Below are positions 32,586 through 34,720 of a DNA stretch of 64,000 bases, piece by piece (within the stretch, counting starts at the first letter, position 1; each line of letters opens with the position of its first letter). Made by a program: the position numbers and the translations under genes. The DNA comes from the human T2T-CHM13v2.0 reference genome, Homo sapiens, in assembly GCF_009914755.1 (NCBI RefSeq), contig NC_060938.1; one strand, given 5' to 3'. The notes beneath the pieces are model-generated. The model was not told the DNA's origin, ran no database searches, and saw nothing but the letters and a program-made list of their open reading frames with translations.

Positions 32586-32628
32586 GCCTAGGTAAAGAAA
32601 TAATGGGATAAGATTTCTAAACCCCACT
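32586..32628. repeat. 43-bp inverted repeat, 3'UTR arm
   Basis: gcctaggtaaagaaataatgggataagatttctaaaccccact is the exact reverse complement of 34678-34720. Confidence 0.97.
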
Positions 32629-32634
32629 ATGTGC

Positions 32635-32718
32635 TTAAGAGTCATCCTCGCCATTGGCGCTGTCTCTGTCATCCTCTCCTTCCTCAGCCTCTTTTTCATC
32701 ATCCTTGATCAACTCCAG
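32635..32718 (-). CDS. HNRNPC: hnRNP C last coding exon to TAA stop
   Basis: [27 protein letters not shown]; exon lengths 241+115+48+158+114+161+84 = 921 nt = 306 aa + stop. Confidence 0.98.
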
Positions 32719-32817
32719 CTGTGAGAAACAGACACAAACAGGATGGAGTTAGAGGCACTCCATGTGTCCCTGAGCCCCCCTCCACCACCTTTTTCTTTCC
32801 TTTCCCGTGGTTTTCAC

Positions 32818-32978
32818 CTGGTCATCCCCCCGATCTTCATTATCATCATCATCCAGTAGGTCCCCCTCCTCAGCAGAGTCATCTGCACCCCCCTCAGACT
32901 CCATCTTCACATTAGTCTCATCTTTCTTCACGGAGCTGCTGCTCTGCTCCTCTTCTGACTTATCATTCTTCATCTCTA
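32818..32978 (-). CDS. HNRNPC: hnRNP C coding exon 6 (acidic region)
   Basis: [54 protein letters not shown]; CAG acceptor, CAG|GTGAAA donor; 161 nt. Confidence 0.98.
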
Positions 32979-33221
32979 CTGCGGATGAGAAGGACAAGTC
33001 TGTCTAGGGGCAGTAATGTCCACAGGACGTAGACAATCCCCACTAAGGATCACAGAACTGCAGCACAAATCTAAATCCTCCCACACAAATACCCTTCCCA
33101 ATTCACACTCCCCAAGTTTCATATTACATTGCTTTATATTCCACTATTCCAACATGTACTTTCAAGTGCCTTATGTAACTAACCCAACTGTATACCAAGG
33201 GCAAGCAGAAAACCCATTTAC

Positions 33222-33335
33222 CTGCTTGTTTGCTCTGTTCCTTTTCAATTTTTTCCAGGTTTTCCAGGAGAGAATCCACTTTTTGTTTTATCTGGGTCAG
33301 CTCCTTCTTAATGGCCTGAAGGTCATCTCCTTTCA
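33222..33335 (-). CDS. HNRNPC: hnRNP C coding exon 5 (leucine-zipper-like oligomerisation domain)
   Basis: [38 protein letters not shown]; AAG acceptor, CAG|GTAAAT donor; 114 nt. Confidence 0.98.
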
Positions 33336-33529
33336 CTTTAATATAAACAAAATACTAGATTAAAATCAAATGTACCGAAGATATGAGTTAGCAAATACAC
33401 TGCCACCAGACTACATCAGGAGCTCACAGGAGATACCCAGGGAGAAACAGAGCCAGTACAGATTTCTCGGTAATAAAGGCCCTTGGTTCTATTATAAAGC
33501 ACGTTCTGTAATGGTTTTTATTGTTTTTA

Positions 33530-34256
33530 ATGTCTTTTAGATCAGGGCTGTCGCTATGTTGACCAGGCCTGAGGACAGTGACTATTCACACGTATGATCA
33601 CAGTGAACTTAAACTCCTGGCCTCATGAAATCCTCCCACTACAGCCTAGATCCCCAGGGTCTTAGCCTCCCCCTAAGCATCTGGGGCTACAGGCACGCAC
33701 CACTGCATCAGACCTTCTGTAATGTTTTACTGCCTTCCATATTTCCAGTTACAGGAGGAGTTCAATATAGAAAAGTTAAAAAAAATCAACATACTGAACA
33801 CTGTCTGAATTTTAGTTTTTAAATAACACAAAAAAATCTCAGGAACTTAACGCACACCTCAACTACATAAAGTCAAATGACATTTTTTAAATTACCTAGC
33901 TGTTGCAGTCTAGAATTGGCCACTCAATCACAATCTTGTCTCCTCTGTTATTTTGGATTTTTTTTTTTTTCTTGAGATGGAGTTTTGCTCGTCACCCAGG
34001 CTGGAGTGCAATGGCATGATCTCGGCTCACTGCAACCTCCGCCTCCTGGGTAAAAGCGATTCTCCTGCCTCAGCCTCCCAATTAGCTGGGATTACATGCA
34101 CGCACCACCATCCCCGGCAAATTTTTTGTATTTTCGGTAGAGATGGGGTTCCTCCATGTTGGACAGGCTGGTCTTGAACTCCTGACCTCAGCTGATCCAC
34201 CCGCTGGGCCTCCCAAAGTGCTGGGATTACAGGCATGAGCCACCACACACCCAGCC
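33530..34256 (-). mobile_element. old Alu remnant (33530-33715) and AluS (33960-34256)
   Basis: Alu consensus. Confidence 0.9.
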
Positions 34257-34371
34257 TCTTCCATTATTTTGAATACACAAAGTCATGTGGCACAAAAATA
34301 TTGTAACTGCATTAGCTTCCCTATCTCAAAACACAAGAGATACCAAAATCACAAAATGAAATAATACATAC

Positions 34372-34529
34372 ACTTTCCAGACTTGGAAGATCCCCGCTGT
34401 CCACTCTTAGAATTGAAGCCACTTTTGCCCCTTCGTGAAGTGTTTCCTGATACACGCTGACGTTTCGAGGGCACTACAGCCCGAGCAATAGGAGGAGGAG
34501 GAGGTACACGTGCTGGGTAACTGTACATC
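34372..34529 (-). CDS. HNRNPC: hnRNP C coding exon 4 (Pro-rich and basic region, NLS)
   Basis: [52 protein letters not shown]; AG/GT boundaries; 158 nt. Confidence 0.98.
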
Positions 34530-34677
34530 CTATTGGATAAGAGGAAAATGGAATTCATTCAAACCTAACATTAACTCAGCACAATTCAACAGACCTTATG
34601 ATAAATAGTAAGTGAATATTGTCTCTAGTCGTTTCCTTTTATTAAATTTCATTAAGAAGGCCAGCAAAAACCTCCAC

Positions 34678-34720
34678 AGTGGGGTTTAGAAATCTTATCC
34701 CATTATTTCTTTACCTAGGC
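34678..34720. repeat. 43-bp inverted repeat, intronic arm
   Basis: agtggggtttagaaatcttatcccattatttctttacctaggc; exact reverse complement of 32586-32628. Confidence 0.97.

What the first reader, a model, noticed from the sequence alone, without database searches (positions are those of the whole stretch)
32586..34720. Perfect 43-bp non-repeat inverted repeat: an intronic antisense copy of the start of HNRNPC's own 3'UTR
Seen: 34678-34720 is the exact reverse complement of 32586-32628. The UTR arm starts 7 nt after the stop codon; the intronic arm ends 148 nt before the acceptor of coding exon 4. In RNA the helix extends by a G-U and a G-C pair on one side and by 3 bp after a 2-nt bulge on the other. 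Neither arm resembles a transposon, and 43/43 cannot be chance. Inference: in pre-mRNA it would loop out about 2 kb containing the last four coding exons, so it could couple splicing of the 17-kb intron to terminal-exon definition or poly(A) choice, provide an ADAR substrate or back-splicing bridge, or let the excised intron act as an antisense RNA on HNRNPC mRNA and its retrocopies. I know of no description of it.
Basis: partly seen in the sequence, partly recalled or inferred. Interest (0 to 1): 0.85.

Follow-up and report, generated by a model that had tools for sequence, protein, structure and literature searches.

The report
Intron copy complementary to HNRNPC 3'UTR
An HNRNPC intron holds an isolated, exact, reversed 43-base copy of the start of the gene's own 3'UTR, so the unspliced RNA could form a long double helix, but its perfection looks more like a young copying accident than a conserved regulatory device.

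Summary
Window 34678-34720 is the exact reverse complement of 32586-32628 (43/43). In sense RNA the helix is 48 bp: 46 Watson-Crick pairs plus two G.U. Its energy is about -88 kcal/mol, and it forms in the minimum-energy fold of the unspliced 2.3 kb.

It is not a repeat. Neither arm lies in a masked stretch. The intron flanks are unique in the genome. The only other copies are HNRNPC retrocopies, which carry the UTR arm. Homology stops abruptly at both ends, and nothing else in the 17.2-kb intron matches the mRNA. No target-site duplication or poly(A) tail is present.

Neutral retrocopies of the same 43 bases decay normally. Only the copy that is 0.5% diverged still has 0/43 mismatches; the other 11 have 1-6.

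Best reading: a single templated inverted micro-duplication from UTR to intron, probably of primate age. It creates a transient pre-mRNA duplex whose selected function is unproven. Cross-species age, duplex reads and RNA editing could not be tested here. Ten paper searches found no description of it.

The parts
32586..32628 (-). 3'UTR arm, the exact 43-mer; it starts at the 7th nt after the stop codon
34678..34720 (-). Intronic arm, the exact reverse complement of the UTR arm; it ends 148 nt upstream of the acceptor of exon 34372-34529
32584..32631 (-). UTR side of the full 48-bp RNA helix (46 Watson-Crick pairs + 2 G.U); it begins 3 nt after the stop codon
34675..34722 (-). Intron side of the full 48-bp RNA helix; the G.U positions are 34677 and 34721
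32635..32637 (-). HNRNPC stop codon (TAA in sense)
   Evidence: and the RefSeq coding end given with the finding
34372..34529 (-). Coding exon 4, the first exon inside the loop. Its acceptor closes the 17,200-nt intron 34530-51729
   Evidence: the same exon in 18 of 18 RefSeq transcripts
34666..34670 (-). U5 tract in sense RNA, 5 nt 3' of the intron arm; a possible hnRNP C site (motif recalled, post hoc)
32564..32568 (-). U5 tract in sense RNA, 16 nt 3' of the UTR arm; a possible hnRNP C site (motif recalled, post hoc)
34638..34643 (-). AAUAAA hexamer in sense RNA inside the intron, about 32 nt 3' of the helix

Best explanation
The intronic arm is an isolated patch of 46-48 bp. It was copied once, in reverse-complement orientation, from the start of HNRNPC's own 3'UTR, which is old and is the source. 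The copying event was either a replication or repair template switch to the opposite strand about 2 kb away, or repair of a break with a short patch templated by the abundant HNRNPC transcript. The copy is probably young, of primate age or later, and that is why it is still perfect. Its consequence is physical. In nascent pre-mRNA the two arms coexist from the moment the 3'UTR start is transcribed until the 17.2-kb intron is removed, and they should zip into a 48-bp duplex that closes a loop holding the last four coding exons. Such a duplex is long enough to be bound by double-strand RNA-binding proteins and edited by ADAR (established knowledge, not tested here). I think the most likely outcome is a transient duplex, edited at a low level, with little or no selected effect on HNRNPC output. 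What is shown: the repeat, its uniqueness, its sharp borders, the direction from UTR to intron under neutrality, and the predicted helix. What is inferred: the mutational mechanism, the age, duplex formation in vivo, editing, and near-neutrality.
For: - Exactness: 43/43, with a 48-bp helix in RNA.
- Borders: homology ends abruptly on both sides.
- Isolation: across the whole 17.2-kb intron only this 46-bp piece matches the spliced mRNA, at E=1e-12; the next best hit is E=0.02, among 39 HSPs.
- Uniqueness: 15 matches to the 501-nt intron query. Only the query itself is full length; the other 14 cover just the 35-48-nt core and lie in the UTR arm and the HNRNPC retrocopies.
- Not a repeat: neither arm lies in a masked stretch, and there is no Rfam hit on the arms (0 of 7 matches overlap).
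- Not LINE-1-mediated: no target-site duplication at the junctions and no A/T run >=8 within 60 nt.
- The UTR arm is old: all 13 retrocopies examined carry it (one is truncated to 33 of 43), including copies that are 11-14% diverged.
- The same 43 bases decay when neutral: pooled 41/549 = 7.5% in the core against 292/4605 = 6.3% outside it. Of the 12 retrocopies with a full core, only the 0.5%-diverged one has 0/43; the other 11 have 1-6.
- Timing under neutrality: P(0/43) falls to 0.25 at 3.2% divergence, 0.09 at 5.5%, and 7e-4 at 17% (the divergence values assigned to primate splits are recalled).
- Paralogues: RALY and RALYL show no equivalent intron/UTR pair in their last 10 kb, so this is not an ancient family feature.
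- Known mechanisms: template switching makes perfect inverted repeats in one step (passages of PMC5453318). Class 2 templated insertions are short RNA-derived patches without target-site duplication or poly(A) (passages of PMC5110952).
Against: - No outgroup genome was available, so the age is inferred only from the absence of decay. A conserved, selected element would look the same in a single genome.
- Both differences at the helix ends are transitions that keep G.U pairing in the sense RNA rather than giving A.C. This is what selection on the RNA helix would predict, but 2 of 2 has p about 0.25 and the helix borders were chosen after the fact.
- The published short-range template-switch model explicitly does not cover long-range switches, and 2 kb is far for that mechanism.
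- A U5 tract lies within 20 nt 3' of each arm, against a base rate of about 0.10 per position. This hints that hnRNP C itself might bind next to both arms, which a passenger model does not predict (post hoc).
- Supplementary tables of the long-range-structure catalogues were closed. They might list this pair.
Confidence: 0.6

Rival explanations
1. It is a selected long-range RNA structure. The intron arm is maintained because pairing with the 3'UTR start regulates HNRNPC pre-mRNA processing. Possible roles are timing removal of the 17-kb intron relative to terminal-exon definition, masking the intronic AAUAAA or the 5'-splice-site-like motif, or acting as a sensor in which hnRNP C bound to the flanking U5 tracts competes with duplex formation.
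For: The helix is overwhelmingly stable and forms in the minimum-energy fold of the unspliced segment, with 48 of 48 positions paired to each other. Both end differences preserve G.U in sense RNA. A U5 tract lies 5 and 16 nt 3' of the two arms, against a base rate of about 0.10. hnRNP C protein is reported to compete with Alu duplex formation (passages of PMC13019944). Long-range pairs of complementary regions are associated with splicing, 3'-end processing and editing (passages of PMC8052449).
Against: Selection for helix stability cannot explain 43/43 identity, because single mismatches in a -88 kcal/mol helix should be almost neutral. Catalogued conserved pairs have a median of 13 nt and -17.2 kcal/mol, so this one is far outside that range. 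The paralogues lack an equivalent. HNRNPC is not mentioned in the main text of the three structure papers checked (0 occurrences each). All 18 RefSeq transcripts use the same exons here, so no alternative event is annotated that the helix could regulate.
Confidence: 0.15
2. It works as an intronic editing-complementary sequence. Whatever its origin, the duplex recruits ADAR to the first 48 nt of the 3'UTR, so mature HNRNPC mRNA carries inosines just after the stop codon, with effects on stability, miRNA sites or localisation.
For: It is a 48-bp near-perfect intron-exon duplex. ADAR-edited sites are strongly enriched in pairs below -30 kcal/mol, with an odds ratio of 13.2 (passage of PMC8052449). 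The geometry, an intron arm pairing with an exon target, is that of known editing-complementary sequences (recalled knowledge).
Against: No editing data could be consulted. The search for HNRNPC + A-to-I + editing complementary sequence + intronic returned 0 papers. The arm sits in an upstream intron 2 kb away, and it competes with co-transcriptional splicing.
Confidence: 0.15
3. The arms are remnants of a transposon, of its terminal inverted repeats, or of a decayed antisense HNRNPC retrocopy lying in the intron.
For: None beyond the inverted orientation. The window does contain many inverted Alu pairs.
Against: Neither arm is masked. The 43-mer occurs at only 8 genomic places at <=3 mismatches, all of them HNRNPC or its retrocopies. 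The intron flanks are unique. There is no other mRNA-derived piece in the intron. There is no poly(A) or target-site duplication. The space between the arms holds four conserved coding exons.
Confidence: 0.03
4. The intron arm is an extremely recent insertion, human-specific or even polymorphic, or an error peculiar to this assembly.
For: There are zero differences in the 43-bp core. P(0/43) is highest for the youngest ages, 0.77 at 0.6% divergence.
Against: If the copy originally spanned 48 bp, it has since acquired two transitions, one of them at a CpG, which suggests some age. No second human assembly or variation table could be consulted.
Confidence: 0.07

Closest known systems
Template-switch mutations that create perfect inverted repeats (four-point model; PMC5453318, passages read; related titles in the listing)
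   Same: [quoted passage not shown] This gives a perfect inverted repeat with sharp borders that can fold as RNA.
   Different: The published model is for short-range switches within one replication fork and explicitly leaves long-range switches out. Here the source is about 2 kb away and the copy is 46-48 bp.
Class 2 templated sequence insertions (PMC5110952, passages read)
   Same: A short patch derived from a transcribed sequence, with no target-site duplication, no poly(A) tail and no LINE-1 hallmarks. The source is a highly expressed gene's mRNA.
   Different: Described donors are usually distant loci. Here the donor and the recipient are in the same gene. Whether it is an insertion or a replacement cannot be told without an outgroup.
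Pairs of conserved complementary regions / long-range pre-mRNA structures (PMC8052449, PMC10691357; passages read)
   Same: Two complementary regions of one gene less than 10 kb apart, predicted to loop out exons.
   Different: That catalogue pairs conserved intronic regions only (median 13 nt, -17.2 kcal/mol). Here one arm is in the 3'UTR, the helix is 48 bp at about -88 kcal/mol, and conservation of the intron arm is unknown.
Intronic editing-complementary sequences of ADAR targets (recalled; no call)
   Same: An intron sequence pairs with an exon sequence only in unspliced RNA.
   Different: No editing has been shown here, the target is non-coding, and the arm lies upstream and 2 kb away.
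Inverted Alu pairs in introns and UTRs (PMC13019944, passages read)
   Same: Intramolecular double-stranded RNA in pre-mRNA that can loop out exons and that hnRNP C is reported to antagonise.
   Different: This one is not repeat-derived. It is unique in the genome, perfect, and much shorter than an Alu pair.

Membership tests
Pairs of conserved complementary regions (PCCR) | At least 10 nt complementary, hybridisation energy <= -15 kcal/mol, same gene, <= 10 kb apart | tested here: met
   48 bp, about -88 kcal/mol, 2043 nt apart; the criteria come
Pairs of conserved complementary regions (PCCR) | Both arms lie in conserved intronic regions (phastCons elements in introns) | tested here: not met
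   One arm is in the terminal exon's 3'UTR. Conservation of the intron arm is not testable here
Pairs of conserved complementary regions (PCCR) | Compensatory substitutions across species | not testable with these tools
   No non-human vertebrate genome is reachable
Template-switch mutation (four-point model) | A fragment copied in reverse complement from nearby sequence, with sharp junctions | tested here: met
Template-switch mutation (four-point model) | Short-range switch within one replication fork; the ancestral state lacks the repeat | tested here: inconclusive
   The 2-kb distance is outside the published model's scope. The ancestral state is not testable
Class 2 templated sequence insertion | No target-site duplication, no poly(A) tract, no cryptic poly(A)-signal-anchored 3' end | tested here: met
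   the only shared flank words are two 5-mers that are not at the junctions, and there is no A/T run >=8. The copied piece is the start of the UTR, not its 3' end
Class 2 templated sequence insertion | A true insertion at a repaired break (empty site in relatives), with microhomology or non-templated bases at the junctions | not testable with these tools
   Needs an outgroup or an empty allele
Transposon / interspersed repeat | Many dispersed copies; annotated as a repeat | tested here: not met
   only HNRNPC-derived copies, and not masked
LINE-1-mediated processed pseudogene fragment | Anchored at the 3' end of the mRNA, with a poly(A) tail and target-site duplication | tested here: not met
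ADAR editing-complementary sequence | An intronic sequence forming a duplex with an exon | tested here: met
   (prediction only)
ADAR editing-complementary sequence | A-to-I editing observed in the paired exon segment and dependent on the intron arm | not testable with these tools
   No read data or editing tables. One search found 0 papers
circRNA-promoting flanking inverted repeat | Complementary arms flank the back-spliced exons, and a circRNA is detected | tested here: inconclusive
   The arms do flank exons 34372-34529 to 32818-32978, but the downstream arm is in the terminal exon, and text searches found 0 papers naming a circular HNRNPC RNA. circRNA databases were not consulted

The most novel reading that the evidence does not exclude
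The intron arm is an evolutionarily retained partner of the 3'UTR start that turns HNRNPC's own pre-mRNA into a sensor of hnRNP C. When the protein is abundant it occupies the U5 tracts next to both arms and keeps them apart. When it is scarce the 48-bp duplex forms, and this changes the fate of the transcript through editing, retention of the 17-kb intron, or 3'-end choice. That would be a non-repeat counterpart of the Alu duplexes that hnRNP C is reported to antagonise elsewhere.
Probability: 0.1. Interest if true: 0.8.

Novelty: new member of a known kind. Interest (0 to 1): 0.4.

Why it matters
HNRNPC is an abundant, dosage-sensitive RNA-binding protein. Reports say it suppresses double-stranded RNA formed by inverted Alus. 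A unique, perfect 48-bp duplex built into its own pre-mRNA would, if used, be a simple and directly testable autoregulatory or editing device. If it is a young passenger, as I think more likely, it is still useful in two ways. It is a clean natural example of a one-step templated inverted micro-duplication across 2 kb. It is also a natural reporter for how long a long intron and the 3'UTR coexist in nascent RNA.

Tried and rejected
- Repeat or transposon origin: rejected.
- Decayed antisense retrocopy in the intron: rejected, because no other mRNA-derived piece is present.
- LINE-1-mediated insertion: rejected, because there is no target-site duplication or poly(A).
- Known RNA family: none on the arms (the 7 weak matches lie elsewhere: Alu/SRP-like hits at 33972-34255, mir-548-like at 30295-30366, and one bacterial sRNA model at E=0.65).
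- Ancient feature shared with paralogues: not seen in the last 10 kb of RALY or RALYL. by mistake fetched the wrong 10-kb halves because stretches are cut at 10 kb; one search fetched the right ones.
Rarity therefore rests on this one 64-kb window.
- A bacterial promoter/terminator scan of 34400-35000 was irrelevant to a human intron and is not used.
- only printed the annotation header, plus a useless tally.
  - HNRNPC with 'long-range RNA structure' and 'complementary': 3 papers, listing only, none on this topic.
  - HNRNPC with 'conserved complementary regions': 0.
  - 'circHNRNPC': 0.
  - Four spellings of a circular HNRNPC RNA: 0.
  - HNRNPC + autoregulation + 'own pre-mRNA': 7 papers, listing only, general reviews and unrelated studies.
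  - HNRNPC + A-to-I + 'editing complementary sequence' + intronic: 0.
  - 'HNRNPC gene' + inverted repeat + intron + UTR + duplex: none of the 10 listed papers holds 'HNRNPC gene'.
- Cross-species dating, proximity-ligation reads, editing tables and human variation were all out of reach.
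Full report
**Observation.**
- Reading both places and comparing them in a script shows that + strand 32586-32628 is identical to the reverse complement of 34678-34720, 43 of 43.
- The repeat finder reports it as the top inverted pair of 7 in 30000-37000. It extends ungapped to 46 nt at 98%, with 2043 nt between the arms.
- HNRNPC is on the - strand.
  - The UTR arm starts at the 7th nt after the TAA stop (32635-32637).
  - The other arm lies in the 17,200-nt intron 34530-51729 and ends 148 nt before the acceptor of coding exon 4 (34372-34529).
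  - All 18 RefSeq transcripts use the same exons here.
The only correction concerns the helix ends, described next.

**The helix.**
- In sense RNA the pairing continues at both ends through a G.U wobble: 32629/34677, then two more pairs; and 32585/34721, then one G-C.
- The result is a continuous 48-bp helix, 32584-32631 with 34675-34722.
- RNAduplex and cofold give about -88 to -90 kcal/mol. Each arm folded alone with 20-nt flanks gives -13 to -17 kcal/mol.
- In the minimum-energy fold of the unspliced 2301-nt segment 32500-34800, all 48 intron-arm positions pair with the UTR arm.
- These are predictions. No in-vivo data were available.

**Not chance, not a repeat.**
- Of 246 exact inverted matches of >=20 bp in the 64-kb window, this is the longest. 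The best Alu-Alu exact run is 37 bp.
- Only 2 of the 246 have both arms outside the 60 masked stretches (17,641 of 64,000 bases masked). The second is a 23-bp piece that I recognise as Alu-like.
- The masked stretches near the arms are 33945-34104, 34111-34253 and 37028-37461. None touches an arm.
- In the whole T2T genome the 43-mer occurs at 8 places with <=3 mismatches, while the backwards-read control occurs at none. Two of the 8 are the arms. The other six fall in or beside annotated HNRNPC pseudogenes and HNRNPCL genes.
- A 501-nt query of the intron (34530-35030) matches full length only to itself. Its other 14 matches cover only the 35-48-nt core. The search tool warns that very common words are skipped and closed regions are hidden.
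- Rfam gave 7 weak matches in 30000-37000, none on an arm.

**An isolated patch.**
- Beyond the helix, the aligned flanks show no more than scattered identities.
- A sensitive BLAST of the spliced mRNA against the entire 17.2-kb intron gives the 46-bp piece at E=1e-12. The remaining 38 HSPs are no better than E=0.02. The arm is therefore not the best-preserved part of a decayed antisense retrocopy.
- The 40-nt flanks share only two 5-mers, neither at a junction, and there is no A or T run of >=8 within 60 nt. LINE-1-type hallmarks are therefore absent.
- The copied piece is the beginning of the 3'UTR, not its end.

**Direction and age.**
- A 419-nt query spanning the last coding exon and the UTR start finds 13 retrocopies at 77-99% identity.
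- Aligned to the parent, all 13 carry the UTR arm. One is truncated to 33 of 43 positions. The set includes copies that are 11% and 14% diverged outside the core. The UTR arm is therefore old.
- The same 43 bases decay at an ordinary rate once they are neutral.
  - Pooled, 41/549 (7.5%) differ in the core, against 292/4605 (6.3%) outside it.
  - Of the 12 retrocopies with a full core, only the 0.5%-diverged one (L020, at the HNRNPCP2 locus) is still 0/43. The other 11 (4.0-14.0% diverged) have 1-6 differences.
  - Nine of these core differences are at one CpG cytosine at the arm's edge. 11 of 13 retrocopies have lost that CpG.
- For a neutral intron arm, P(0/43) is 0.77 at 0.6% divergence, 0.25 at 3.2%, 0.09 at 5.5% and 7e-4 at 17%. 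The 5% bound is about 7% divergence.
- Mapping these divergences to the chimpanzee, Old World monkey, New World monkey and boreoeutherian splits rests on recalled, approximate values.
- If the original copy was 48 bp, it has since gained two transitions in the intron arm. One of them is at the CpG, where the UTR and most retrocopies show the ancestral state. That would fit an age of tens of millions of years.
- If the copy was 43-46 bp, the maximum-likelihood age is zero.
- Either way, a neutral arm must be of primate age or younger.

**Why perfection argues for youth.**
- Losing one pair from a helix of about -88 kcal/mol changes almost nothing.
- Selection for pairing could not hold all 43 positions fixed. 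Functional long-range pairs in the published catalogue have a median of 13 nt and -17.2 kcal/mol (passages of PMC8052449).
- Exact identity is therefore better explained by recency than by function, unless the intron arm is also constrained base by base for another reason. This step is inference.

**Mechanism of origin.** Two described processes fit.
- Template switching during replication or repair copies a nearby stretch in reverse complement and produces perfect inverted repeats in one step (passages of PMC5453318). However, that model is explicitly short-range, and 2 kb lies outside it.
- Class 2 templated sequence insertions are short patches, apparently reverse-transcribed from RNA, that repair a break without target-site duplication or poly(A) (passages of PMC5110952).
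- HNRNPC mRNA is abundant (recalled), and the + strand of the intron carries the mRNA-sense sequence.
- I cannot choose between the two without the ancestral empty site.

**What it would do.**
- The intron arm is transcribed first. The acceptor follows 145-148 nt later, and the UTR arm about 2 kb later.
- If the 17.2-kb intron is not yet excised when the polymerase passes the stop codon, the arms can pair and close a loop of 2043 nt. The loop shrinks to about 670 nt once the three short internal introns are gone (coordinates).
- The branch-point and polypyrimidine region lie outside the helix.
- A 48-bp near-perfect duplex is a plausible ADAR and dsRNA-binding-protein substrate. Edited sites are strongly enriched in pairs below -30 kcal/mol.
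- After splicing the mRNA keeps only the UTR arm, so any lasting mark would be inosines just after the stop codon.
However, text searches found 0 papers naming a circular HNRNPC RNA.
- Exon looping-out in the usual sense does not apply, because the terminal exon's acceptor is also inside the loop.

**Hints for function (weak).**
- Both end differences preserve G.U in the sense RNA. That is 2 of 2, p about 0.25.
- A U5 tract lies 5 nt 3' of the intron arm (34666-34670) and 16 nt 3' of the UTR arm (32564-32568). Only about 10% of positions in this gene have such a tract within 20 nt.
- U tracts are the recalled hnRNP C binding motif, and hnRNP C is reported to compete with Alu duplex formation (passages of PMC13019944).
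- I looked at several features after the fact, so I treat these points as a lead only.

**Paralogues.** The last 10 kb of RALY and RALYL contain no comparable intron/UTR pair. The best inverted pair in RALY is 26 nt at 81%.

**Literature.**
- None of my ten searches found a description of this repeat.
- HNRNPC does not occur in the main text of PMC8052449, PMC10691357 or PMC10573301 ('find' mode only).
- The library does not hold most subscription-journal papers.

**Verdict.**
- This is a real, unusual, non-repeat inverted micro-duplication that links an HNRNPC intron to the start of the gene's 3'UTR.
- Most likely it is a young templated copy that makes a transient pre-mRNA duplex with no demonstrated function (confidence 0.6).
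- A selected regulatory or editing role remains possible and can be tested cheaply.
- Interest is moderate, at 0.4. It would rise sharply if the arm proved conserved beyond primates, or if duplex or editing reads exist.

Noticed in passing
L040 4096-4410 and 4990-5304 (G000:C8:85353819-85354133 and 85354713-85355027), 3' region of RALYL: RALYL, a paralogue of HNRNPC, has a 315-nt inverted repeat that is 99% complementary with a 579-nt spacer. The two arms are the only copies in the genome, so it is not a repeat family. Its position relative to the RALYL exons was not checked.
   Followed up: partly
window 34709-34722, - strand: In sense RNA the intron arm begins with UAG|GUAAAG preceded by a U-rich stretch, a motif that resembles a 5' splice site or a recursive splice site. 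The UTR arm carries its complement. No score was computed.
   Followed up: no
window 34638-34643 and 32367-32372, - strand: There are AAUAAA hexamers in sense RNA about 32 nt 3' of the intron arm and about 265 nt into the 3'UTR. The first is a possible intronic poly(A) signal and the second a possible proximal one. Their use is unknown.
   Followed up: no
window 34666-34670 and 32564-32568, - strand: A U5 tract lies just 3' of each arm, against a base rate of about 0.10 per position for a tract within 20 nt. These may be hnRNP C sites on its own pre-mRNA.
   Followed up: partly
L020 (G000:C2:190413503-190413925, HNRNPCP2): This retrocopy is 99.5% identical to the parent over 419 nt, far younger than the other 12, which differ by 4-14% outside the core.
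   Followed up: partly
window 32585-32586 (CpG at the edge of the UTR arm): This CpG is kept in the parent gene but lost in 11 of 13 retrocopies, and the intron copy has CpA there. It is an example of CpG decay in neutral copies against retention in the UTR.
   Followed up: yes
window 30295-30366: There is a weak mir-548-like match on both strands (33.1 and 29.7 bits, against a gathering score of 90), just beyond the annotated 3' end of HNRNPC. It is probably a palindromic transposon remnant; that assignment is recalled.
   Followed up: no
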